Origin: Octopus sinensis
Lineage: Eukaryota
Length of the DNA stretch: 64,000 bases
Assembly (NCBI RefSeq): GCF_006345805.1
Contig: NC_043005.1
Span: 88,846,001 to 88,910,000 of the forward strand
Direction of reading: 5' to 3'
A program made the position numbers and the translations under genes. Below the pieces are notes generated by a model. The model worked only from the letters and a program-made list of their open reading frames with translations. It searched no databases and was not told the origin of the DNA. This document shows, piece by piece, positions 2,173-47,003 of this stretch. The first letter of the stretch is position 1, and each line of letters starts with the position of its first letter.

Positions 2173-3068
2173 CTAGCCGAGATGCCCGGCATTGCTAGGG
2201 ATTAAAATGGAAATAGCTTGTATATAACATATTACAGTTATGTTGAAACAGGTGATATGGGAGAATGCAGCATTAACAACAAAACATTTGTGGAGTAAAT
2301 GCCGGGCTAATCCGACTCAGTAACATGCTATGCGACCGTTTGGAGTATTTCAGACCCTAACCTGTTATGGAAAACTGGAGATGGGGGTTATGTGATTTTT
2401 GAACGCACCGAAATTTGCAGCAGTCAGCACTGTGTCTAGCATCACCCATCATCTGAAATTTTAACACCTTCTTCAGGTTTGTTGCCCTACATCACTCATA
2501 AAGTCAATTTGGAGGAACTGTGGTTGTTCATTTGTGGGTAAGATGGAACCAATGAGGTGATAGATCTGCCCTTGAACTTTGACGTCGGTGTAAATTCATG
2601 TTTATCTATCTTCTTAGATGTACCAAACGATGTCATTTGAAATACAGAGTTGTATTGTCTGATATTGTTCAGAAAATCCTTTCACTGGAGTGAAGTGCCT
2701 TCAAGAAGATTCATAAGAGTAGTGCTGGCAATGTTACCTGACCGCCTGAGCAACACATACCATTTGTTCCATTTGAAAATTTTAAAGCTCTACATAAACG
2801 ACAATTTGTGCTCAGCACACCAATTTGGACAGAGTTATCATTTTTATAAGAATGGGATGGATCTTGAGAAAATCTCATCTCTCTTCAAACACAATCCTCC
2901 TTGCTTTATACTTGTTTCTGGAGAGATTACATCTTTTCTGTGTTTCTCCCGCTCATTCCATAAAAATTTATTTGAAGAGAGCAGAAATTGAAAGAAGAGA
3001 AAGCGAAAAGGACAGAGAAAGAAAATAAAAGATGTATGTACGTCTATATGAAATGGACAGGTGTGTGC

Positions 3069-3147
<79 letters not shown>

Positions 3148-3398
3148 TGACAAAGAAAGATAGAGTGAGTGAGTGAAGGTGTGTGTCGTGATGATTGATG
3201 TCTTTTAAGGTACACCCACATATACAGAATGTGACGTCATCGTATAACATGTTTATGAAAGTTGATTTATGGAAAAGATTATAATGTTAAATTTTTGAAA
3301 TGCAAATATGTGAATGGAAATTAAGTTTAATTTGAGCTTTAAAATTATCTCGCATTACAATAGAGACATAATATCGAAATAATGTAAGATATAAGAGA
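2173..3398 (-). mobile_element. Non-autonomous Helitron
   Basis: Minus strand starts TCtcttatatc and ends with a GC-rich hairpin (ccctagcaatgccggg) plus CTAG; termini resemble the other Helitrons here. Confidence 0.65.
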
Positions 3399-4084
3399 TT
3401 GTTATGGGTTTGCATTAGGCAAGAAGTTGGAAATTCTTTTGGCCCATGACACTGCATTGACCTTCGCTTTTGTATTTGACGACTAAGTATTTTATTTCGA
3501 TTTTATGTATATGTGTATGTATGAGTCAATGAGGGAGACCTCTACATGGTAGCTAGACCTGGTAGAAATAGCAGCCAAATCTCCCTCAAAACACCCTACT
3601 GTCTTAATCCGACAATTCTGACTATTATGTAGTTTGAATGAGAAACTGTAACTAAAGATTAAGATTATTAACCCCAAAAGGTTATGCGTTTTAATAGCAA
3701 TCAATTTTTTCTCTTTTTTGCGTAGTTTTTCCTGTCGGCTGTGAAAGGTGAAAAGGGTTAAGTTGGACGGTGTTAAGTAGTGGAGATGTTGGGTGATTGT
3801 ATGTGGTGGTTACTTTTGATTGTTTCATCTCAATTACGATAATTGATTGTTAACGAATCTTAACAGTGTGTATATACAACTTCAAGTAGAATCGGACATC
3901 AAAAGAAAGACAGAGAGAGGAAAGAAGAGAGACACCATAGCGACGGTTTTGGCTAACTGTCATCCTGTACTACCCTTTTTAGTAGCGAAATGGTATGTGC
4001 TGGCTGTCTGAGTAAACTCCTTGCTTTTAATGGCGGAAAATATAAGACAAAAAGATTACAAAAATAGAAATTTTCACTTTGAAA

Positions 4085-4776
4085 CTAACACCCTCCCACA
4101 CCCTCAGGGTTGGCACTGTCAACGTTGGCACACTGAAATGGTCTGGTGAGATTGTTGAGATGCTTGAATGGAGATTTGTCGATATGTGCTGCATCGAAGA
4201 AGTAAGATGGAGGGGAGGTTCCGCTAGGTTCCCTACAGGCAAAGAACACACGTACAAGATTGTCTGGGCAGGGAACACTGATGGGGTCGGGGGCGTGGGT
4301 ATACTTCTTGCGGAGAAATGGGTGGATAAGGTGATTGAGGTAGTCAGAGTATGCGACAGAATACTTAAGATTAGATTAGTGCTTCATCATGGGTTAGCAA
4401 CCATTATCTCAGCCTATGCCCCTCAGCCGGGGCTACCGGATGGGCAGAAATACCGATTCTATGACACCCTACTGCAGATTACCACGTTGACGAATGACAG
4501 GGACCTTCTCTTTGTGGCTGGTGATTTCAATGGACATGTTGGACAACACGCAGGAGGCTTCCATAGCGTACATGGAAGCTATGGTTTTGGGTCCCGCAAT
4601 GAGGAGGGAAACAGACTGCTGGAGTTCTGCGATGCAAATGATCTCATGGTTTGCAATACCAACTTCAGGAAACCTGCCAAGTGGATGCCCAGAAGATGAC
4701 CAGCATGGAGGAGAAGGGTCTGGAAGCTTAAACATCCTGCGAATGGACAGGGATTTAGAGACATATTACTTGAAGC
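4085..4776 (+). mobile_element. RTE-clade LINE fragment (APE endonuclease)
   Basis: ORF 4079-4699: [35 protein letters not shown]; near-identical to 16110-16950. Confidence 0.92.
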
Positions 4777-5580
4777 GTAATAATACATATACATACCTAC
4801 AATACACACACATAAATATATAGAGACATATCTACATCATAATGTATATATGCAAACAATTTTTTAAAAATAGTGTTCGGTGTGCATAATTTTGTAAAAT
4901 AATGAAATTGTACATTAATTTGGTGTAACATAATTAAATACGTGAGTAAAACTAAAACTAAAACTAAAACTAAAACTAAAAATAAACCTCGGCAAAGCTT
5001 AAGCTTAAAATAAAAAATTTAAATATTTGAATTTTAAATTTTAGAGTCTGAGAGTAAAGGGTGGCTATGAGAGAAATCCAGGTGAGCTGATATGGAGACA
5101 GGGATGCAGGCAAACACACCCAAGCAGCTTTACCTGTATCACTAGCTCTCTGTCTCTGTGTGTGTGTGTGCATATGAATGTATATATATACACTTGTGTG
5201 TCCATATTTGTGTATATATTTAAACTATTCGTCCCAGATCCGACCTGCGATAGAAGCACCTGCCAGGGTCCCAGGTATGGTTTAATTAGCATGTAAATCA
5301 CTGGGAATGAAGGACCCCTATTTCTTGTCAGAACATCCTCTTAGGCAAAGGTAAACTTGTATAAAAAAGCATTGAAGTGCAGTTGGCTTCTGGTCATCTC
5401 AGCCTCTGTTGTGCCTCTGGTTTTATGGCAGTTTGCTCAGAAAAGTGGTTCTTCTCGAAACAAATCTATGCACAGGAACTTCTTGGACTCTCAGAACGTT
5501 TGCAAGGAAGATTTGAATTTATGAAGTGGTCATGCTCGGTCATGAGTTAACATTCACCACCATATATACATATACAAGTA

Positions 5581-5615
<35 letters not shown>

Positions 5616-5688
5616 AAATATGCAAAAATGCAAAATGTAGTGCAAGCACTAAACACACTAGCGTGCAGATACGACACACAGAACTTAC

Positions 5689-5792
5689 CTGTCTGATAAA
5701 ATTCCACAGCTGACCATGGCACAAAGGTAGCCGATGAAGTAAAACGTAAAGGTGTGCCTTGCCAGAATCGCATCATCGCAAACGAGATTTAG
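5689..5792 (-). CDS. Internal exon (104 bp) of an SLC22/organic cation transporter family gene (gene B)
   Basis: Acceptor tttctcattgcag| and donor ag|gtaagt; reads LNLVCDDAILARHTFTFYFIGYLCAMVSCGILSD(R), matching the SLC22 xxLVCD...GxLSDR(FGR) exon. Confidence 0.9.
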
Positions 5793-6188
5793 CTGCAATG
5801 AGAAATAGGAAAACTATTTAATGTATACATTTTATCATTTTGATAATAATAATTTTGTTTTGGAAATGTAGAAACAGTGTTTCTTGGAGACCCCTTTCAT
5901 AGTCAGTGTGTATTCAAAGGACTTTGTTGTAGGAACAACGGTCATGTGACACTCCCAGAATCGATTGTATAATATGGAAGGAGCCACTATCAAAGGGACC
6001 ACTGTTCATTGGCTCTGGAACAGTGCGAGTACAGCCACTAAAATTTGGTGGTGCAGGGGCAATGAAAAGGCGTTAAACGATCTCCTAAAAAGCTTCATCA
6101 CCAAAACGAATGAGCATAAAATCATTTTTGGGTTGATTTGAAAAATTATCTTTCATGATTGAATGTATCCGATTTGGTTGATGTACAA

Positions 6189-6275
<87 letters not shown>

Positions 6276-6666
6276 TTATTATAACTGAGTTTGTTTCAAT
6301 ATTAAGATTGAAAAAAGATTGAATTCATTTTATAAAATATTTTGGACCTGGGTTTGCACCCCTAAGCAAATTTCATTCCTGCACTTATGTCACTGTTGGT
6401 TGTTAATCCAGAATCTTTTGTGTGGAGGGACTTTGTTGTAAAGATTGTTTTCAAGAATTAGCCTCAGAATCTATTCTGACCCAGGAGTTATATGGGAAAT
6501 ATTATCAATAACCATTGCCAGAACACTTCACGCTATGGCGACAATGTCTTGGAACCACAATCAATATCCTGTCCCAATATACATTGCATCATAGAGATGT
6601 ACTTTTGTAGAAAACTATCAATAAAACTCCAGAACGTATTCCATTTTCTTCACTCTTTCACCCTCC

Positions 6667-6840
6667 ATATACTCAGATATCTCCCTGGATAAGATGGTGT
6701 CTATGCCCATATATCTCCCTGGATAAGATGGTGTCTATGCCCAGATATCACCCTAGATAAGATGGTGTCCATACCCATATATCACCCTGGATAAGATGGT
6801 GTTTATACCCAGATATCATCGTGGATAAGATGGTGTCTAT
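6667..6840. repeat. 34-bp minisatellite, about 5 copies
   Basis: Unit atatctccctggataagatggtgtctatgcccag. Confidence 0.9.
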
Positions 6841-7866
6841 CTTTGTCCTCGACCTTGTCAACCTTGGGTCTTGTAGGAATTATCCTAAACCCATTCTGCC
6901 AGTTGCCATGGTTCTCATCAACTCCTTTGGTATTAGGCATAACCCTGCAACCTTCCATTTCCACTTTGATGCCAGTTGATGACACCTTCAGGTCCCAACT
7001 GTCCCTTATTCTATGATTTCTCTTGTTCAGGCCTGAATTGTTGACCTTGGTAATTGATGGGATTTTAAAGGATGGCAGAGCGTTCAGTGCTGTGTAAAAG
7101 AGTTATGATTGTTAATTAGTAGTAAAGTGACTGGTGGTTCCAGACAGTAAGAAATAGAATTTTTCAACCATCTTCCCTTTCTCTAGCATCATGGAACTTG
7201 ATTTGGTGGGTTGTAAGTCTTTCTTGGTAAGGTATGTCTTGCAATATTCACCAACTGTTTGGGACTAATGTCACCAATGTCAGCTATAAATACTCTTACT
7301 GGGGGCTGTCCAACCCCTGACTTAGACGAGGATCTCCCTTATTTCGCCTTCGTCCACTTGGTAACTATATTTATGGCAAGGGCTAACAGGAGAAGAACTG
7401 ATGCTTGTCTGATGATTTAACTCCGAAGCGATCAACAGTCAGAAATTCCTGAAGAAATCAAAGATCGGGTGGACACATAGTGATGGTGCAGTGTACATTC
7501 TGTTTTGCTTTTACACATGCATGCAAACACATGCGCACATATGAATAGGATCTTACGACTGAATTGAAAATAGAATTTAGGGGCAATGTATATAACAAAG
7601 ATCTTGGTAGAACATAACAACCCTAGCTAATTTATATACATTGATATCCCAGCCTAATTGTTTAAGCTATCCTCATTGGATACTTAACATATACACACAA
7701 ATACTACATTCATAGTTCCCGACATTTGCGTTTCTATGTGTACATGTGGCAGTAATACTGCATTGGTGTGTACATCTAATATTAAGCTTCTCATGATGGT
7801 TGTATACATGTACAATAATTGAATGCTGTGACCATGAAAAATCTTTCTTGCATGGTTCTGTAGGTG

Positions 7867-8020
7867 CAGGCATGGCTGTGTGGTAAGAAGTTTGCTTCCC
7901 AAGCACATAGTTCTGGGTTCAGTTCCATTGCATGGCCCCTTGTGTAAGTGTCATCTATTGCTTCAGGTCAACAAGTCTTGTGAGTGGATTCGGCTGACGG
8001 ACACTGAAAGACACTTGTCA
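7867..8020 (+). mobile_element. Degenerate tRNA-SINE (same family at 21637-21780 and, on minus, 59145-59295)
   Basis: tggctgtgtggtaagaagtttgcttcccaa...ctgggttcagt head. Confidence 0.65.
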
Positions 8021-8091
8021 TATATATGTGTGTATATATGTGTGTGTGTGTGCATGTATGTGTGTGTGTATGTGTGTGTGTGTATGTCTGT

Positions 8092-22757: not shown

Positions 22758-23205
22758 TTTCTTATTTCTTTATTGCCTACAAGGGGCTAAACATAGAGGG
22801 GGACAAACAAGGACAGACAAAGGAATTAAGTTGATCACATCGACCTCAGTGCGTAACTGATACTTAATTTAGCGGCAAGCTGGCAGAAATGTTAGCACGC
22901 CGGGCGAAATGCATAGCCGTATTTCGTCTGCCGTTATGTTCTGAGTTCAAATTCCGCTGAGGTCGACTTTGCCTTTCATCCTTTTGGGGTCGATTAAATA
23001 AGTACCAGTTACGCACTGGGGTCGATGTAATCGACTTAATCTGTTTGTCTGTCCTTGTTTGTCCCCTCTGTGTTTAGCCCCTTGTGGGTAGTAAAGAAAT
23101 AGGTACTTAATTTATCAACCCCGAAACGATGAAAGGCAAAGTCGACTTCGGCGGAATTTGATCTCAGAACGTAACGCAGACGAAATAACGCTAAGCATTT
23201 CGCCC
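22758..23205 (-). mobile_element. SINE interrupted by an antisense copy of its own family
   Basis: Pieces 22758-22871 and 23104-23205 are the reverse complement of the inner SINE. Confidence 0.85.
22872..23101 (+). mobile_element. SINE with target-site duplication (further copies 29959-30192 and, degenerate, 52020-52230)
   Basis: TSD tacttaattta at 22861-22871 and 23104-23114; gagttcaaattcc B-box; taagtaccag..actggggtcga core. Confidence 0.9.
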
Positions 23206-29737: not shown

Positions 29738-30246
29738 ATATATTTATAGTCCACAAATGAGATCAAGAGATTCTCCGTGTAGAAGACAGTGCTCAAAAGA
29801 TTCAAACTTAGATTCTGATGTTTTTACAAGGGATCAATTCCATGGGATAAAGAATGGGTATAGGGACCAGGTTGAATGGATAGAACAACACAGGATAAGC
29901 AACTTTGATACACCAAATGTATTAATTGAATTAAGTGATTAATACACTTAATATATTAGGGTGGTGAGCTGGCAGAATCGTTAGCATGCTGGAAGAACTG
30001 CCTAGCGATATTTCGTCTGCAGTTACATTCTGAGTTCAACTTCCACCAAGGTCGCCTTTGCCTTTCATCCTTTTGGGGTCGATTAAATAAGTACCAGTTA
30101 CACACTGAGGTCGATGTAATAGACTTAATCCCTTTGTCTATCCTTGTTTGTCCCCTCTGTGTTTATCCCCCTGTGGGCAATGAAAAAATAAATATATTTC
30201 ATATATTGATGCATCTAATTTGCTTATCCAAATAATTGCTTCTGTA

Positions 30247-36232: not shown

Positions 36233-38660
36233 CTAGCAGCATAGCACGGCGTTGCCCGGGTATGTAAAAGCCCTAGTTGGCAACGACTAATCCCGATCTA
36301 GTCCTTCCTTCTAGGGAACGAAGGCGCATGTGTAGGTTGCAATGTCTTCTCTTCACTCCAATACTTCTGTGTATACGACGTTCCTAGCTGCCCCTTTGGC
36401 GAAAACATGAAAACATCATTGCGCCTCCCAACACGTGAACAGCCCAAGTAGAGTTGACCGTGGGCGAAGCACTGTTCGCCCAAATGTAACCCAGCGACTT
36501 GTAGCGATTGGCCTTGGGATTTATTGATGGACATTGCGAAGCAGAGTTTAACAGGAAACTGAGAATGCCTGAAGTGGATTGGTAGGTCAGCGCCCGGCGG
36601 TTGAAGGTGCATGCGTGGAATGAAGACGCCCTCTCCCTTCTCACAACGGTAAGTATTGTTGCCGTTATAAATGTGGTGCCAAATGTTTCATAACCAGATG
36701 TGTGCCGTTGCACAGTTTAGGTGGAACCAAATTCATGATGAGCATAATGGGCGCACCGACTTTTTAACTTCAGGATGTGTGGCGGCAAGCCTGGCGGTTC
36801 AAGTGAATTCAGGAATTCAACAGGATAATCGGCAAGCTCGGCGGGGTCTGCTGTCCTATCTATAGATTTGTAGACGTGGACATCACCAGGAATAGCTTCA
36901 AGTAGCTGGATATTGATGGAGTTGACGGTTGTATATTTGGGGGCGAGAATAGCTCTGCCTACCAGCCATTTTAGGTCGCGTAGATTGTTTTGTAGGTCGT
37001 GGAAGACAGCGTCCCGGAGGCTAGCAGGGGTGTTGTCGACAGTGGTGCAAAGTGAGTCCAATTGAACGCAGCCCGTCCGCATATTTTCACCGAGCGATAA
37101 AGGTCCCTGGTGAATGCAGCGGATCCGCAGTCACCAATCAACTGCGCGCGCATGTTAGTTTGTAGGTGCAAGGGCCGCACATGTGCCCAAAGAGCTGACG
37201 ACTTATGGCACGTGCGCACGGCATCGGCACGGGTTCCTTTTGGAATAACAGGTAGAGTCTGCTGAAGTCTCCTGAAAGAAGTAAAGTAAAGTCAATCCTC
37301 CCATGAGTGTGCCGTAGAGTCTCTGATGTCTTGCAGGGACCTGTCCAGTGCCTCAAGGGCGCCTTTGTGTGCCATTGTGCACTCGTCCCATACGATGAGT
37401 TTGCATCTGCGCAGAATGTCGGCCTGTTCTGAGTTCTTGGCGATATTGCAGATAGGTGACTCGGACTTTGCTAGATCGAGCGGGAGTCTGAAGGCAGAGT
37501 GGGCGGTTCTGCCACCCGGAAGCAACGTGGCCGCGATACAGAGGAAGCTACAGCTAGGGCAATGTCCATGTTGCGTCTGACCTCCGCCACAATTAGTTTC
37601 GTGACGAAGGTTTTTGCCAGGGTCGCCAGGTGCGTCAAGGAAGTAAATCCCCCCACGTTGCTGTCTGACAGAGTCTACGATGGTGTTGTAGGCTATGCGC
37701 TGGTCTAGAAGCAGTTGTGGTTCATTATCATGGACGTACTGGTGCAGTTCCTCAATGCAGTAGAAAGTTTCGCGTAACAATTCAGCAGACATAACATTGG
37801 CGTGTTCACGTGTGGGTGGTGGAAGGCCGTAGTCCGTTAAAGTAGAGCCACCATATCGATGACAGCGTCTTTCGAGTTGAATAAGCGCAAAAATGTAAAT
37901 GAGGTTGGTGAACGTGATCTCGACGGTAGGGCAGTAAGCTTTGGTTTGTATGTGGGATACCTTGAAGATTAAGTCTAGATTTCCTCCTGTGGGTTGAATT
38001 ATCGATAGCTGTTTGATAGTTATTTGGGGGAGTAAGAGAGTTAAAGAAGGTCGAGTTGCGTCCCCTAGACAGTCTGTGGTTTGTGTTTAATACACAAATC
38101 GGTTTGCTATGTGTGCCACATGATTTAATTAACCGATTTTTTCTGGTAATAAAGTATCCTATTGGAATAAAAAGAGCCATATAGCTCCTTGGAGCAGACA
38201 TGATGCTCGCTGTGAATTAAAAAAAAATTCCTGCCAATTTGTTAAATATTGTCGAAAATATGTCATCTTGAATTTGAACGCGATTTCCCAAAATGGCATG
38301 ATTTTATCGATTTTTTCTGATGGTAAGGTATTTCATGGAAAACTAACGTCAGAATTAAGTTCCTTAGGGTAACATTAAGCTTCACTATGAGCTTGGTGAA
38401 AATTGATTGCAAGAGTTGCGAAAACTACAACAGAAAATGTGTTGCATATGAAAAGCTTAGATTCTCGACCCCATGTCGAATTTATAAATTTTTTCAGAAC
38501 TGGGGAAACTTTCCAAAATTTTCGCTGCGTTAGTTTTGAATTATGACATTGGGCTATGTGTGTGTCAAGTGTCATCAGAATCGGTAGAAAGCCGTGGTCA
38601 GGGTGAGGGTACAACCTGACAGACACACAGACAGACAAACTGCTTTTATATACAGAGAGA
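36233..38660 (-). mobile_element. Helitron with a disrupted PIF1-like helicase (about 36380-37900)
   Basis: 5' TCtctctgtatataaaagcag, 3' hairpin plus CTAG, A|T flanks; FLDAPG, GGRTAHSAFRLP, IVWDECTM, QFPVKLCFAMSINKSQGQS, HGQLYLGCSRV. Confidence 0.92.
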
Positions 38661-38729
38661 TTCTTCTATACACAATCACACACACCCGTATATATATCTA
38701 TATAAACACATATATACACATATATGTGT

Positions 38730-39344
38730 ATATGGTCTGCTTCTTGGTATCCTTCTGGCCTCAAGCCTAAAGTCACTAATGACTAGCCTATGCTGGGAAG
38801 TACATTCTTCACCCAGGAGGGTCTTTATATTTAAGAGCAACCCTGCATCCCGGTGTCTGGTGAGGATGAAATCAATCTGGCTTGCAGAGTCCCCCGATTG
38901 ATAGGTTATCAGATGGCTGTCTGGCTTCCTGAAGTTAGTGTTGCAGATTAAAAGGTTACATGCATCACAGAACACCAGTAGCCTGGTTCCCTCATCGTTT
39001 CGGGTGCCAATACCATGGCTACCGTGTACCCCAGTGAAGATATCAGATTGCCGCCCAACATGCCCATTAAAGTCTCCAGCCACAAAGATGAGGTCATTGC
39101 CACTCGTCTTTGAGGTAGCCTGTAGAAGGGTATCATAAAAGTGGTCCTTCTGATCATTTGCTAGCGCCGCATGTGGGGTGTAGGCGGAGATAATTGTAGC
39201 TGTGCTGTTCTGCAGGACCAGCCTGAGCTTAGGCACTCTATCACATACCCTAACAACCTCTATGACTCTATCCACCCGTTTCTCCGCAAGGAGTATGCCT
39301 ACACCCCCTACACCATCCATGTTACCTTGCCAGAAGACTTTATA

Positions 39345-39620: not shown

Positions 39621-39944
39621 CGAAGTTAGTTCAGTATATATGCGAAGTTAGATCAGTGAGCTCTATGTGACATTGGAAAATTTATATAGGGTGCTATTGA
39701 TTTAAAAAATAGATACAGGGGACACCCCAGTATAAAAAAATCCCACGACATTCACATCATACATTAAACACCTCAAAGAGTCTAACATTGAGTATAATTA
39801 AAGATGGTCGATAATTACTGAATCAACACAATATACCACACACACTAGGTGGTATAAAGGAATCGAGGAGCATCGAACCCAAGAACTCATTCTATTGAGG
39901 TCTCTTTTGTGATGCTGGTAATATGGGGATGTAAAGATACCAAC

Positions 39945-40268
39945 ATTAGTTGGCAAGCAATGTATAAAAACTTAGATAAAAGTTAGATATGTTTCGAGCA
40001 AAGATTGGTCCAGGCCATGTCTAACTTAATAGCACCACCTGATAGGATTATCTAAATCCTTTTTAAGTCAAGTTTTGTTTATGGTCCATTCAAGTAGTGA
40101 GTTCTTGTTGAAGGAGTTGTATCCAGGTATGGGTGGCTTATCTGGTATTCCTTGAAGAAATCTGTCCAGACTCCGTTTAAAGGTGATGGGATCCTTTTCC
40201 TCTTTGATCAGTTTTAGGACAACGTTAAACAGGGCAGGGCCTGTTGAGGAAAAGAAATTATGTCGCGG
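39945..40268 (-). mobile_element. LINE ORF2 C-terminus and 3'UTR (CR1/L2-group-like); probably continues at 42780-42812
   Basis: Minus strand RHNFFSSTGPALFNVV..IK...FKRSLDRFLQGIPDKP..PGY....NSL. Confidence 0.75.
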
Positions 40269-40760
40269 ATTTCCTCACGAATGAATGTAAGAATTGCTTT
40301 CTCGTAGAAGTGGCAATGGTGAAAGAGGCGATCTGGAAGACAGGGATGAAAGGGATTAGGACAGGCAACTTCATATCTGGCCTCGCTTTAGTGAACTTCT
40401 TTAAGTTTCACTTGAAAAGAAAAGTGGAGCTGGAAAGAAGGTGTCTGTCTGAGAAGGTGTTTAAAAAACGATGGATGCGTGTTGCACGGATGTTGGGTGT
40501 GAAAGGCCCTGTGTGAACACGTCATAAAGGAAAAAAACAAGGTGTCGATGGATGAAAAGACAGGGCTCGTGGGGGGGGGGGGGGCGGAGCATACCAGTTT
40601 ATTTTTCTCTCATTGGTTTTTAGTGTTTGTAATTATCGTTTTTGTGTACCATTCGATTAATCATATACACCAATTTAAATTTTTATATCTCATTTGTCGA
40701 CCCCAAAGTTTGTTTGTGCTGTCCCCCTCTTTGCTCACCCCTTATGGAAAATAATAAAAC
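40269..40760 (+). mobile_element. 3' end of a Tx1/L1-like LINE (ORF2 C-terminus, 3'UTR, AATAAA)
   Basis: AMVKEAIWKT...FFKFHLKRKVELERRCL....FKKRW.RVA resembles Tx1 ORF2 C-termini; aataaa near 40753. Confidence 0.7.
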
Positions 40761-40891
40761 TCGCTGTATAGTGCCTTGGGGCGTTGTTATTGTGTGTACG
40801 TGAGTTAATGTTGAAATATTTATTGAATTGTTGTTCAAATTGTTACCATTGTTGATTCTGTAATTGTTGTTTTGTTCCCCATTGTGGGGAG

Positions 40892-42277
40892 ATGGAAAAG
40901 GCGCTAGGGGAAGGCCCAAGTTATGCGGCCGTAACTGGCGAAGGAGTAGACGTGCAAGAGTTGGAGGTCCGCGAGTTAAAGTGGAACCTCGAAAGGTGAA
41001 GAAGGAGTGTGAAAAATTAGTCACAATGGAAGGAAGTACTTTGAAGCTGAAGCCACCCGAGGAGCTATCTACGAATGTGACAAAGAGAACAGTAGTGTAC
41101 AAAACCATGAAGGCAGCCACTAGGAAAATAGAGGTTGCCCCTATAGCGGTAATAGAAGAATGTATCAAAGACATAAAAAGATACACAGCATTCGTTACAA
41201 GAGGAAGAAGATATGCGACTGTGGAGGTGCGCTTCGCAACGGAGGAGGAAGCAGTTAAACACTCCACGGAGGCTATAAGATCGGAGGAGTGGGTGCTCTT
41301 GCCTTCGTACTGTGGCAAACGTGTGGCCAAAGTACGAGTGGATAAGGTGCCACCCGAACTGAAGGAGGCATGGCTGATGACAGCCATAACGTATAATATG
41401 AAAGAAGGAAAGATTTTGAAGGCCACGAGGACCCAGAAGGTGGACTACTGGGTTTATGGAATTGAATTGACTATACAGGCAACAACGGAGGATTGGAACA
41501 GTGTGGGGGATGAGATTGTCCTCCCAGAAGATGTGAGACTGAGAGTTACAGTGGAGGGTAGGCCGCCGATATGCTTTTCATGTGGAGAAAAGGGCCACAT
41601 GAAGGCATGGTGCACCCAGAAAAAGCAACAAGGAGAGCAGGTGGAGAGAGAAGAGAGCGTGGACCAGGTAGAACAGGTCGAGGCAAAGGAAAAAAAAACA
41701 GAGGATGATTTTACTGTGGTAAAAAAAAGAAGGAAGAGCGGAGGGAAGGGATGTCCGCCAGAGAAACAGAAAAAGAAGAGAGAAGAGATGAGAAAAGAAA
41801 CTGTGAAGGAGGTCAGCAGGAAGGAAGACAAAAGGGTGACAGAGAAAGAAAGTAAAAGAAAGTGGAGCTACAAGTAAAGATACCAGTTGTTCCGGTGGGA
41901 AAGGATTCGGAAATTCAACTGGCCGAAGAAGAGATGGAGAGACTGTTTAGAGTGGAGGAGGAAAAGAGAGAACAAAGAGTTCAAAATAAAGGAAGGAAAA
42001 TACAAGGAGGAAATGGAGTATGGTATTACGTGACCTACCCAAAGAATGTAGAAACAGAGAAGAAGATAGTCAAGTTTAATGAAATAGTAAGAGTGAAAGT
42101 AGCATCATACATATATGCAGAGGATATGAAGGCGATAGTGATAGAAAAGGAAAACTACAAGAAACTGGAAGAAATGTGTGGAGATAGTACTGACCACCAG
42201 GAGTGAGGGTGGATTTCAAAGAATTGCCGCCAGTTGTGGATTTAATAGAAATCGAACCATTGAAGAAGTACTATTAA
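40892..42277 (+). pseudogene. Tx1/L1-like ORF1 (gag-like, CCHC knuckle) with about 3 frameshifts and no ORF2 downstream
   Basis: ATG 40892 MEKALGEGPSYAAV; RRM-like region (EVRFATEEEA, VRVDKVPPE); VEGRPPICFSCGEKGHMKAWC; charged linker; further coding-like sequence to 42277. Confidence 0.85.
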
Positions 42278-42821
42278 AAAGAAAATATGTTTGTTAAATT
42301 GAGAGAAAAAAAGGAAAGAAAAAAGAAAAAGGTAAAAAAAAATAAAAAAGGGAGAAAAAGTAAAAAAAAAGTAAGAGTAAAGTGTTTTATGCTATGTTTA
42401 AAAAAAGTAGTGAAAAATCGAAGACCAATTGTAGATAATGTATATAACGGTTCAAATGGTACCGCATGGAAGTGGGGCCCATGCAACCATTTTCATTTTT
42501 TATATAATTTCATCTCATTTACATTCGTTTATGTTTTTTGTCCCCACTGTGGTCTTGTCTGTCCTTGTGGTGTCCCGTCTGTGTTTGGGGCTTTATACCT
42601 AATAAAGAAATCCTCCAATTGAATTGTCACCTTGGGCGTTGTTATTATGTTTACGTGGGTTAATGCTGAAATAATTATTGAATTGTTATTCGAATTGTTG
42701 CCATTGTTGTTCAAATTGGTGTTGTCTGTCCTTGTGGTGTCCCCTCTGTGTTTGGGGCTTTATACCTAATAAAGAAATCTGTCACCATGTAGTGCCTTAC
42801 TTGATTTTACCCGGAGAAAGG

Positions 42822-42912
42822 AACCCTGAGGAAGGAAACGTTTTTACAGAGTGAGGTGAATTTGGACTATTTCCTACAAGCCGTTAAAACTTTTGTGAAA
42901 CGGGCGCAGGTT
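42822..42912 (+). ncRNA. Possible degenerate hammerhead with branched stem II
   Basis: aacc-CTGAGGA-aggaaa..tttcct-acaag..tttgt-GAAA-c gggc GCA-ggtt; cleavage triplet non-canonical. Confidence 0.35.
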
Positions 42913-43468
42913 TGGACAAATACTTTCAATCGTTTCTCTTAATTTATTTTCTAGCTTCATGATACCCCTTATATATTTTAGGTTTTTATGTTTATCTTGT
43001 TATATTTCTTATTTATGTTAATACTTCTATATTGTTATCCTGAAACTCCTAATATAAATATGTGGATATTGGAATGGAATAATACCCCATGTCCTACATG
43101 TGAATTCTGAATTTGCTTGTGTGAATATTTTAAGAGAAATATCTGAAATTTTTATCGTATAGCAAATTTTATTAATCGTTAACTCATATACGGGTGAAAA
43201 AACAGTTGTACTATATAGTGGAGCTTTACCTCCATTAAAATTCTCGTATTATACATACATTCATACACATAGCAATTTTATTCTAGTAGGTTTCAAGTTT
43301 GTATCTCATTTTTTCTCATTTTTTATGCCAAAGATATTTATTTATTCTGTGTTCTATTTTTTATATATCTGTTTATTTTCAAACTTTATATTTGTATCTT
43401 TAATTTATTTTAACGGAAACATACACCCCCAAACGCCATTTTGAAGTGTCGTCTTCCCTTCTTTTACG

Positions 43469-44151
43469 CAGAAGAACGACACGTATCTCGACCAGATTGT
43501 GACTTGCGATGAAAAGTGGATTTTTTAGGACAACCGACGACACTCAGCTCAGTGGTTGGACACCGACGAAGTTCCACGGCACTTCCCGAAGCCAAAATTG
43601 CACCAAAAGAAGGCCATGGTGACTGTTTGGTGGTCTGTTGCCGGTCTCATCCATTATAGCTATTTGGATCCAAGCGAAACCATTACGGCGGAGAAGTACT
43701 GTCAGCAAATGTATGAAATGCATAAGAAACTCCGACAACAGCCAGCATTGGTCAATAGATAAGGACCAATTCTTCTCCACGACAATGCTCGGCCGCACGT
43801 CGCACAATTGACCCTGCAGAAGTTGAACGAATTGGGCTGCGAAACTCTGCCTCATCCGCCATACTCACCAGACCTCTCGCCTACCGATAACCATTTTTTC
43901 AAGCATCTTGACAACTTCCTGCGTGAGAGATGCTTCAAAAACCAAGACGATGCCAAAGACGCCTTCAACGACTTCATCACCACCAGAACGCAGGATTTTC
44001 ACGCTACTGGCATAAATAAACTTGTTTCGCGTTGGCAAAAGTCTGTTGATTCTGATGGTGTTTCTTTCTATTAATAAAGTTTTGTTTGGGCCGAGATATG
44101 TGCATCTGAATTTAAAGGTTAAAAACCACAAGAACTTTCTTGATAACCTAA
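43469..44151 (+). mobile_element. Mariner 3' half (Hsmar1/cecropia-like), pseudogenised
   Basis: IVTCDEKW, VTVWW, LLHDNARPH, HPPYSPDLSPTD, right TIR ...gataacctaa|ta. Confidence 0.93.
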
Positions 44152-44804
44152 TAAATTAAAAAAAAACAGGGTTTGCTTACTCAATAGAGGGCAGAATATA
44201 TTACACGATATTACATGGTATTAATGAAATTTTGAAAATTCCATTTTTTTGGAAGCTGGATAAGAGATAACGTTTTAATTTCAAAATGAAATCGGGATCA
44301 TTTAGTAAGGGAGGTAACTATCTTTATAATAAGCGTACAAAACTAACAAAGGGAAATAACTCTCATATTTCTTAAACCTGATAATGTGGTTTTATTTTGT
44401 TAGTCCATGAAATTTGATGGTAGATTAACTTAAGGATAGGAGTAATCTCTGTAATCCAGTGGTTTGTTGGATAAGATTAAACATTTACCCTTGAATTACA
44501 GTGCATAGTCTGTCCTTTTATTGCACGAGAAAAATTTAAGAATAAAATTAAAATATTACTTTAACATCAGGATTTATATTTACACAACTGTAACGATTAT
44601 TTAAAATTCCTTTAATGGGTTCAGTGATTGGGCTGCGGCCATGCTGGAGCACCGCCTCTAGCCGAACAAATCGACCTCAAGACTAATTCTTTGTAAGCCA
44701 AGTACTTATTCTATCGGTCGCTTTGCTGAAACGTTAACTTTCGGGTACGTAAACACACCAACATCGGTTGTCAAGCGATTGGGGGTGGGACACAAACACA
44801 GACA

Positions 44805-45094: not shown

Positions 45095-47003
45095 AAGGAA
45101 TGATGAACATTCCATAGAGGGGGATTTGAGAGGTGAAGGGGAGGAAGGAATGTTGAACATTCCAGAAAACGGGATTTGACGGGTGAAGGGGAGGAAGGGA
45201 AGGGACGAATGTTGAACTTTCCAGAGAGGGGGATTTGATAGGTGAAGGGAAGATAGGGGAGGAAGGAAAGTTGAACATTCCAGAGAGGGGCATTTGAGAG
45301 GGGAAGGGGTGGAAGGGGAGGAAGGTATGTTAAACATTCCAGAGAGGGTGATTTGAGAGGTGAAGGGGAGGAAGGGGAGGAAGGGGAGGAAGGGGAGGAA
45401 GGGGAGGAAAGAATAATGAATACTCCAGAGAGGAACGAACATTCGAGAGGTGAAGGGCAGGAAGGAATGTTGAACTTTCCAGGAAGGGGGATTTGAGAGG
45501 TGAAGGGGAGGGAGGGAAGGGACGAATGTTGAACATTCCAGAGAGGGAGATTTGTGAGGTGAAGGGGAGGAAGGTGAGGAAGGAATTTTGAACAATCCAG
45601 AAAGGGGGATTTGAGAGGTGAATAGGAGGAAGGGGAGGAAGGAATGTTGAACGTTCCAGAGTGGGGGATTTGAGAGGTGAATAGGAGGAAGGGGAGGAAG
45701 GAATGTTGAACGTTCCAGAGTGGGGGATTTGAGAGGTGAATAGGAGGAAGGGGAGGAAGGAATGTTGAACGTTCCAGAGTGGGGGATTTCAGAGGTATCG
45801 CTGAGGAAGGGGAGAAAGAAATGTTGAACATTCCAGAGAGGGGGATTTGAGAGGTGAATAGGAGGAAGGGGAGGAAGGAATTTTGAACAATCCAGAAAGA
45901 GGGATTTCAGAGGTGACGCTGAGGAAGGGGGGAAAGAAATGTTGAACATTCCAGAGAGGGGTGTATTTCAGAACTGAAGGGGAGGAAGGAATGTTGAACG
46001 TTCCAGAGTGGGGGATTTGAGAGGTGAAGGGGAATAAGGGGAGGAAGGAATTTTGAACAATCCAGAGAGGGGGATTTCAGAGGTGAAGTGGAGGAAGGGG
46101 AGGAAGGAATGTTAAACATTCCAGAGAGGGTGATTTGAGAGGTGAAGAGGTGTAGGAAGAAATGTTGAATATTCCCGAGAGGGGGATTTGAGAGACGAAG
46201 TGGAGGAAGGGGAAGAAGGAATGTTGAACAATCCAGAGCAAGGGACTTGAGAAGTGAAGGGGAAGAAGTGAACGAAAGAATGTCCAACATTCCAGTGAGC
46301 AGGTTTTAGAGGTGAAGGTGAGGAAGGGGAAGAATGAATGTTGTACATTTCTGAGACAGGGGTTTGAGAGGTGAAGGGGAGGAAGTGGAGGAAGGAATGT
46401 TTCAAATTCCAGCGAGGGGTTATTTGAGAGGTGACGGGGAGGAGGGGGAGTAAGGAATGTTGAACATTGCAGAGAAGGGGATTTGAGAGGTGAAGGGGAG
46501 GAAGGAATGTTGAACATTTAGAGAAAGAGATTTGAGAAGTGAAGGGGAGGAAGGTGAGTAAGGGATGTTGAACATTCCAGAGAGGTAAAGTGGAGGAAGG
46601 GGAGGAAGGAATGTTGAACATTCCAGAGATAGGGGTTTGCGAGGTGAAGTGAGGAAGGGGAAGAAGGAACGTTGCACATTCCAGAGAGGGAAATTTGAGA
46701 GGTGAAGGGAAGGAAGGGGAGGAAGGAATGTTGAACATTGCAGAGAGGGGGTTTTGAGACATAAAGTGGAGGAAGGGGATGAAGGAATGCTGAACATTCC
46801 AGAGAGGGGGATTTCAGAAGTGAAGGGGAGGGAGAGGAGGAAGGAATGTTGAACATTCCAGAGGGGGATTTGAGAGGTGAAGGGGAGGAATGGGAGGAAG
46901 GAATGTTGAACATTCCAGAGAGGGAATTTGAGAGATGCAGGTAGGAAGGGGAGGAAGGAATGTTGAACATTCCAGAGAGGGGGAGTTTAGATTTGAAGGG
47001 GAG
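45095..47003. repeat. Purine-rich satellite, modal unit 59 bp, about 34 copies
   Basis: Consensus gaaggggaggaaGGAATGTTgAACATTCCagagagggggatttgagaggtgaaggggag. Confidence 0.97.

What the first reader, a model, noticed from the sequence alone, without database searches (positions are those of the whole stretch)
40269..42779. Composite Tx1-like insertion: ORF2 tail followed by an ORF1-only (HAL1-like) unit
Seen, in order: Tx1-like ORF2 C-terminus; 3'UTR with AATAAA; an 85-bp leader (about 40774-40855); ORF1 with SYAAV and a CCHC knuckle; an unrecognised C-terminal domain (GVWYYVTYPK...LKKYY); an A-rich tract; a second 3'UTR with AATAAA; the same leader again (about 42630-42710); a duplicated tail (42555-42612 = 42722-42779). 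No endonuclease or RT follows ORF1. Removing 40269-42779 rejoins a minus-strand LINE in frame (RHYMVT-P-RHNFFS), which suggests one insertion block without a TSD. Inference: either a gag-only non-autonomous LINE that arrays head-to-tail with its partner, or a LINE with reversed ORF order.
Basis: partly seen in the sequence, partly recalled or inferred. Interest (0 to 1): 0.75.

Follow-up and report, generated by a model that had tools for sequence, protein, structure and literature searches.

The report
Half-LINE stacked at a shared target
This is a dead copy of an abundant 1.8-kb jumping gene in likely octopus DNA that has an RNA-binding-type gene but no copying enzyme, and it sits in a three-deep stack at one spot of another repeat that full-length relatives also hit, so it likely borrows their enzyme and landing site.

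Summary
Window 40778-42612 is a thrice-frameshifted copy of a genome-wide ORF1-only family. In 0 of 80 relatives does an endonuclease follow ORF1; 64 run into the same C-terminal domain. ORF1 is under purifying selection (dN/dS about 0.2 between subfamilies), 12 of 33 scored copies have target-site duplications, and the 3' tail is shared with complete L1/Tx1-group LINEs and a SINE. Complete partners have normal ORF order, so reversed order is rejected. The flanks are two different repeats, and the in-frame rejoin is chance. The 'repeated leader plus tail' is a second, internally deleted unit. The three elements are separated by copies of one target sequence from the right-flank repeat, a hot spot (4 of 13 other copies carry such a tail). 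ORF1-only LINEs and Tx1 targeting of other transposons are each published; I did not find the combination in print, but this scan noted it before on other DNA, including this genome.

The parts
39700..40266 (-). 3' end of an unrelated CR1-group-like LINE, 5'-truncated; left edge approximate. Not part of the stack
   Evidence: 40 matches at 92-100%; other copies continue differently; clade label recalled from the peptide, not tested
40266..40762 (+). 3' fragment of an autonomous L1/Tx1-group LINE: ORF2 C-terminus (stop 40514-40516) and 3' UTR with the shared tail
   Evidence: matches ends of EN-RT elements at 62-82% aa; tail
40763..40777 (+). Target copy 1 (15-nt remnant of the repeat-R site)
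   Evidence: paralogs read TGTAGTGCCTT or CCATGTAGTGCCTT here
40778..42612 (+). Unit 1: full-length ORF1-only element (leader, ORF1, A-rich tract, 3' UTR ending AATAAAGAAATC)
40892..42277 (+). ORF1 (about 460 codons): two RRM-like domains, CCHC knuckle, charged linker, C-terminal domain; frameshifted near 40980, 41853 and 42193
   Evidence: (other organisms differ at 41853 and 42193)
41950..42277 (+). C-terminal domain of ORF1, predicted ferredoxin-like alpha/beta fold; likely homologous to the end of autonomous ORF1
42613..42633 (+). Target copy 2 (about 30 nt in older paralogs; 9 nt lost here)
   Evidence: L321, L322
42634..42779 (+). Unit 2: internally deleted relative, about 85-nt leader joined at TGG to the last 63 nt of the tail
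   Evidence: junction found only at 5 places, all on C9
42780..42798 (+). Target copy 3, the original site in repeat R
42780..43424 (.). Downstream part of repeat R, an AT-rich ~1-kb dispersed repeat of unknown class; its upstream part is missing here

Best explanation
The region is a stack of three separate insertions at one site of a host repeat, and its centre is a dead copy of a genome-wide ORF1-only retrotransposon family that is likely copied in trans by the enzyme of complete L1/Tx1-group LINEs recognising a shared 3' tail. Shown: the family lacks ORF2, keeps ORF1 under purifying selection, makes target-site duplications, shares a ~50-nt tail with complete elements, and both kinds recur at the same site of repeat R. 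Inferred: the partner's endonuclease prefers that site; each insertion duplicates the target, so later elements land beside earlier ones and form head-to-tail chains; ORF1p coats its own RNA and helps it compete for ORF2p. Inferred later history: unit 2 lost its interior, the upstream end was lost or replaced at the junction with an unrelated LINE, and the stack was copied by segmental duplication on C9.
For: Next feature after the focal ORF1 in 80 loci of 8-10 kb: C-terminal domain 64, nothing recognised 12, another ORF1 2, UTR 1, RT fragment 1, endonuclease 0; 23 of 80 have a same-strand neighbour unit. Tree of 107 ORF1s: an 89-row branch (SH-aLRT 97) holds no EN-linked row, and the 8 EN-linked rows lie in a separate 11-row branch. 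dN/dS 0.21-0.24 (core, 72 rows) and 0.27-0.37 (C-terminal domain, 76 rows) at 18-40% divergence. Flanking duplications of 14-37 nt beat 50 shuffles in 12 of 33 scored units. Shared tail in 54 ORF1-side, 24 ORF2-side and 3 SINE rows. R site: 4 of 13 covering loci carry a tail within 50 nt, against 0.0005 expected per window; two are ORF2-bearing, one full-length with a ~21-nt duplication (L328). The same leader follows the same target end at C3 and C12 in other R copies. An organism-D contig bridges the ORF2-UTR/leader junction.
Against: No experiment shows trans-mobilisation or the partner's specificity. 21 of 33 scored units gave no significant duplication, and 12 more had no callable end. 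Preference is partial: most close 3' ends lie at unrelated sites. The 80 loci were drawn from the 150 best-scoring ORF1 matches of 15,117 candidates, which favours the window's own kind. At least 4 rows of the tail alignment are SINE tails picked up by mistake. The 5' junction of the ORF2 fragment is lost, so its separate insertion rests on the target remnant alone. Pairwise dN/dS values are not independent.
Confidence: 0.85

Rival explanations
1. The ORF2 tail and unit 1 arrived together, by read-through transcription of an existing chain or by template switching during one reverse transcription, rather than as two hits on the site.
For: ORF2 pieces abut ORF1-only units elsewhere (L145, L160, L245, L257). 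In L329 an ORF2 piece is fused directly to a truncated ORF1-only tail with no target copy between them.
Against: A target remnant separates the two here, and the same leader sits behind the same target end without any ORF2 tail at C3 and C12.
Confidence: 0.08
2. The apparent site preference comes from host-plus-insert composites being multiplied by the host repeat or by duplication, not from repeated targeting.
For: 17 loci share one exact tail/target junction in another host repeat; this stack itself has 4 duplicates on C9.
Against: At the R site the inserts differ in kind (ORF1-only and ORF2-bearing), tail sequence and junction position. At the other host repeat at least four different leaders or tails occupy a 30-nt stretch.
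Confidence: 0.04
3. A LINE with ORF2 before ORF1.
For: The order in the window; 2 of 20 ORF2 tails are followed by an ORF1.
Against: Complete elements have ORF1 before EN; each half has its own AATAAA tail; ORF1-only units carry their own duplications.
Confidence: 0.01
4. One-off deletion of ORF2 from an ordinary LINE, inserted as one block in a single minus-strand LINE.
For: A frame-preserving join can be written.
Against: 0 of 80 relatives have EN after ORF1; the flanks belong to different families.
Confidence: 0.02

Closest known systems
HAL1 (half-L1) of mammals (PMC5753468, passages; primary paper Bao and Jurka 2010 not held)
   Same: Non-autonomous L1-group derivative that encodes only ORF1p.
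   Different: Invertebrate host; ORF1 has two RRM-like domains plus a CCHC knuckle; ends at AATAAAGAAA without a long poly(A); recurs at fixed sites in other repeats and forms chains.
HeT-A (Jockey clade) and Ag-Sponge (CR1 clade) (PMC5786205, passage)
   Same: ORF1-present non-autonomous LINEs; head-to-tail telomeric arrays for the Drosophila elements (PMC13534243, start of abstract; HeT-A detail recalled).
   Different: Partner is L1-group; arrays are dispersed over many chromosomes inside other repeats.
Target-preferring Tx1 families: Tx1L in Tx1D, crocodilian Tx1-Mar, Tx1-8_Crp, Tx1-4_AMi, Tx1-9_AMi (PMC4494074, passages and section 15)
   Same: Preferential insertion into other transposons, including LTR elements.
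   Different: Those are complete elements; here an enzyme-less family shares the sites, and its subfamilies track different targets.

Membership tests
ORF1-present non-autonomous LINE (HAL1-like) | Encodes ORF1p only, no ORF2 | tested here: met
   0 of 80 with EN after ORF1
ORF1-present non-autonomous LINE (HAL1-like) | Multicopy family that moves as a unit (target-site duplications) | tested here: met
   12 of 33 scored units; copies on many contigs
ORF1-present non-autonomous LINE (HAL1-like) | ORF1 maintained by selection after ORF2 loss | tested here: met
   dN/dS 0.21-0.31 among ORF1-only rows above 18% divergence
ORF1-present non-autonomous LINE (HAL1-like) | 3' end shared with an autonomous partner | tested here: met
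ORF1-present non-autonomous LINE (HAL1-like) | Mobilised in trans by the partner's ORF2p | not testable with these tools
   needs a retrotransposition assay
HAL1 proper (mammalian L1-derived) | Derived from mammalian L1 ORF1p | tested here: not met
   ORF1 is 2xRRM-like + CCHC and related to local EN-linked ORF1s at 27-39%; named homologues are from octopods
L1 group (partner) | ORF1 then ORF2 with APE endonuclease, RT, C-terminal zinc domain | tested here: met
   PF03372, PF00078, PF13966; best solved match L1 ORF2p E 2e-53 versus R2 3e-19
Tx1 clade (partner) | RT phylogeny with named Tx1 elements | not tested
   no named Tx1 reference came; the label rests on recalled ORF1 architecture and on targeting
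Tx1 clade (partner) | Target preference for repeated sequences | tested here: met
   preference is partial

The most novel reading that the evidence does not exclude
An old, diverse ORF1-only lineage in octopods has split into subfamilies that each keep their own landing site in a different host repeat although they encode no endonuclease, so the site would be set by the parasite's RNA ends or its ORF1 protein (through partner choice or target pairing), with complete LINEs, half-LINEs and a SINE forming a three-tier system on one tail.
Probability: 0.3. Interest if true: 0.75.

Novelty: new variant of a known kind. Interest (0 to 1): 0.45.

Why it matters
It extends the ORF1-only way of life, described from Jockey, CR1 and mammalian L1, to a target-preferring L1/Tx1-group lineage in octopods, and shows that such elements have kept their protein under selection for a long time. 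Why a parasite keeps ORF1p when SINEs use the same tail without it is an open question, and this genome holds all three tiers. If subfamilies without an enzyme really have their own targets, that would be a natural test of how non-LTR target choice is set. The window copy itself is dead.

Tried and rejected
Flank rejoin: rejected. A 14-nt pattern for target-plus-leader gave 33 hits against 1 control, but of the 30 loci read only 6 were relevant (4 of them C9 duplicates); many of the rest look like a SINE, so it is not used as enrichment. A DNA search meant to find empty copies of a second target was swamped by another abundant repeat. A strict pattern for tail-plus-R-site found only 2 loci: too tight for these diverged copies. 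Rfam found only microsatellite-driven matches below cut-off in the target repeats; R's class stays unknown, and a Penelope or CR1-derived origin was considered but not shown. C-terminal domain: no Pfam family above cut-off in 34 rows, no PDB sequence match under E 0.1, no usable Atlas hit, no Foldseek match at E 0.001. Expression: no RNA holder listed; two guessed-RNA runs gave only short low-depth contigs on ORF1, which says nothing either way. Branch-wise dN/dS was not obtained; pairwise values are used. Literature: searches found no description of Tx1-type ORF1-only elements in cephalopods (one search was swamped by unrelated 'half line' papers); PMC13282606 (first third read; term search) lists L1-Tx1 families but never mentions ORF1. 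Bao and Jurka 2010 and PMC85248 were not held; Repbase and supplements were not seen and may already list such families.

Full report
Setting. The window lies on contig C9 of a 2.72-Gb animal assembly. Named homologues of the ORF1 come from Octopus bimaculoides, O. vulgaris, O. sinensis and Argonauta hians, so the host is likely an octopus and the family reaches across octopods. Those named proteins were not checked for lacking ORF2.

Observation. The listed parts are present. The leader is repeated at 84-86% and the tail at 61 of 63 nt. ORF1 runs from 40892 to about 42277 with three frameshifts. The C-terminal domain is in frame in the paralog L014, and contigs of two other organisms differ from the window at the second and third break. 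This copy is dead.

The flanks are not one LINE. Of 18 other copies of the left-flank LINE, 16 continue with an SQHIGT-like stretch, 2 are cut off, and none continues into the right flank. The right flank is a different, AT-rich ~1-kb repeat (R). Its uninterrupted copies have their own upstream sequence, and it has no credible match to the left-flank loci. The in-frame join is chance.

The ORF1 unit is a family without ORF2. The ORF1 search gave 15,117 candidates, of which 150 were scored. I fetched 8-10 kb around 80 of the 150. The next feature on the same strand was the C-terminal domain in 64, nothing recognised in 12, another ORF1 in 2, the UTR in 1, an RT fragment in 1 and an endonuclease in 0. 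Six of the 80 have some ORF2 piece within 4 kb downstream, four of them behind the C-terminal domain. Selection by likeness to the window's ORF1 biases this sample.

Complete partners have the normal order. Among 20 loci fetched by the ORF2 tail, 4 retain ORF1 before EN, and only 2 have an ORF1 within 1.3 kb behind the tail. L154 carries PF03372, PF00078 and PF13966 and is closest to L1 ORF2p among solved structures. L1 group is therefore shown; the Tx1 clade label was not tested by phylogeny. In a quick tree of 107 ORF1s, an 89-row branch (SH-aLRT 97) has no EN-linked member, and the 8 EN-linked rows fall in a separate 11-row branch with 3 other rows, one of them ORF1-only. That could mean a second loss of ORF2, but long branches meet there.

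The family moves and is under selection. Of 45 complete units, 12 had no callable 3' end; of the 33 scored, 12 have 14-37-nt flanking duplications that beat 50 shuffles, several at unrelated sites. Pairwise dN/dS is 0.21-0.24 for the core at 18-40% divergence and 0.53 among the closest pairs, as expected when decay after insertion is added; the C-terminal domain gives 0.27-0.37 in the same range and about 0.6 at both extremes. A ~50-nt tail ending in AATAAAGAAA is common to 54 ORF1-side rows, 24 ORF2-side rows and 3 SINE copies from the window; at least 4 rows are SINE tails picked up by mistake. Shared tails between non-autonomous elements and their partners are the usual sign of trans-mobilisation (PMC4494074, passage).

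Protein. The model of a 460-aa intact relative is confident over residues about 20-220 and matches tandem-RRM proteins (best E 4e-5). A CCHC knuckle and a charged, disordered linker follow. The C-terminal domain folds as a small alpha/beta sandwich (pLDDT 76); its best match is Z 6.0, rmsd 3.3 over 70 residues among ferredoxin-like folds, which is generic. It aligns weakly with the ends of 8 autonomous ORF1s (score 25.5, best of 30 shuffles 15.6, probability 24%), so it is likely inherited rather than new.

How the stack arose. Older duplicates on C9 keep the spacers intact: about 30 nt of R's site after unit 1, 19 nt after unit 2, and about 15 nt after the ORF2 tail. All end at the same base. 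Units 1 and 2 have distinct leaders in each duplicate that keeps both, so they are separate insertions. The unit-2 junction occurs at 5 places, all C9 duplicates, so it is a local deletion and not a SINE family. The site is a hot spot: of 25 non-duplicate R loci, 13 cover it and 4 of these carry a tail within 50 nt, against 3 tails in 305,820 control strand-bases. Two of the four are ORF2-bearing; L328 is a full ORF1-EN-RT element with a ~21-nt duplication. The window's leader also follows the same target end at C3 and C12. Against strict specificity, most close 3' ends are at unrelated sites. A 509-nt contig of organism D spans 40339-40856 with 27 differences and 11 gap letters, so the ORF2-tail/leader junction is shared with another species label.

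Wider pattern. 23 of the 80 loci have a same-strand neighbour unit, and L145 alternates ORF2 tails and ORF1 units. Other subfamilies recur at other repeats: two adjacent sites near the end of one repeat (Helentron-like by recalled motif), a site just after the TATA box of an LTR-like repeat, a second site in R, and one unknown repeat. By eye these groups follow branches of the tree; I did not test this formally. 17 loci share one exact junction, which could partly reflect multiplication of a host-plus-insert composite.

Comparison. ORF1-only LINEs are known from Jockey, CR1 and L1 (PMC5786205, passage; PMC5753468, passages), and Tx1 families that prefer other transposons are known (PMC4494074, section 15). 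Seven searches did not find the combination or a cephalopod case, but the primary HAL1 paper and Repbase were out of reach. Earlier notes of this scan describe the same kind of element in this and other genomes; they are not independent evidence.

Verdict. A real, selected, ORF1-only family stacked with partner fragments by repeated insertion at shared targets (0.85). New variant of a known kind; interest 0.45.

Noticed in passing
window 22764-22820 (-), 23045-23100 (+), 30134-30190 (+): SINE-like copies end in the same ~50-nt tail as the LINE and the ORF1-only element.
   Followed up: partly
L328 (G000:C7:97691500-97701400), 2980-8070: Full-length ORF1-EN-RT element at the R site with a ~21-nt duplication; best candidate for the partner type.
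   Followed up: partly
L329 (G000:C17:2028000-2037900), 3124-4441: ORF2 piece fused directly to a 5'-truncated ORF1-only tail, then repeat R at another site; the ORF2 break lies about 20 nt from where the window's fragment begins.
   Followed up: no
L145 (G000:C3:102773700-102783600): Chain of at least six alternating ORF2 tails and ORF1 units over 8.6 kb on one strand.
   Followed up: partly
G000:C9 83.74, 83.80, 83.94 and 89.13 Mb: Segmental duplicates of this neighbourhood; the 89.13-Mb copy is inverted and 98-99.6% identical.
   Followed up: partly
L169, L175, L180, L187: ORF1-only units inserted just after the TATA box of an LTR-like repeat; class label recalled.
   Followed up: partly
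L199 (G000:C12:8073800-8082800), 2857-3774: Relative of unit 1 at the R site whose tail and downstream R lie inverted against the leader.
   Followed up: no
window 36700-38100 (-), 38700-39340 (-), 43435-44155 (+), 45135-47003: Helicase fragment of Helitron type, RTE-like endonuclease fragment, mariner transposase fragment (labels recalled from motifs) and a 59-bp tandem array of 32 copies.
   Followed up: no
L102, L108, L039 versus window 39785-39873: Repeat R's upstream part shares a ~90-nt block with the 3' UTR of the left-flank LINE family, although the coding parts do not match.
   Followed up: partly
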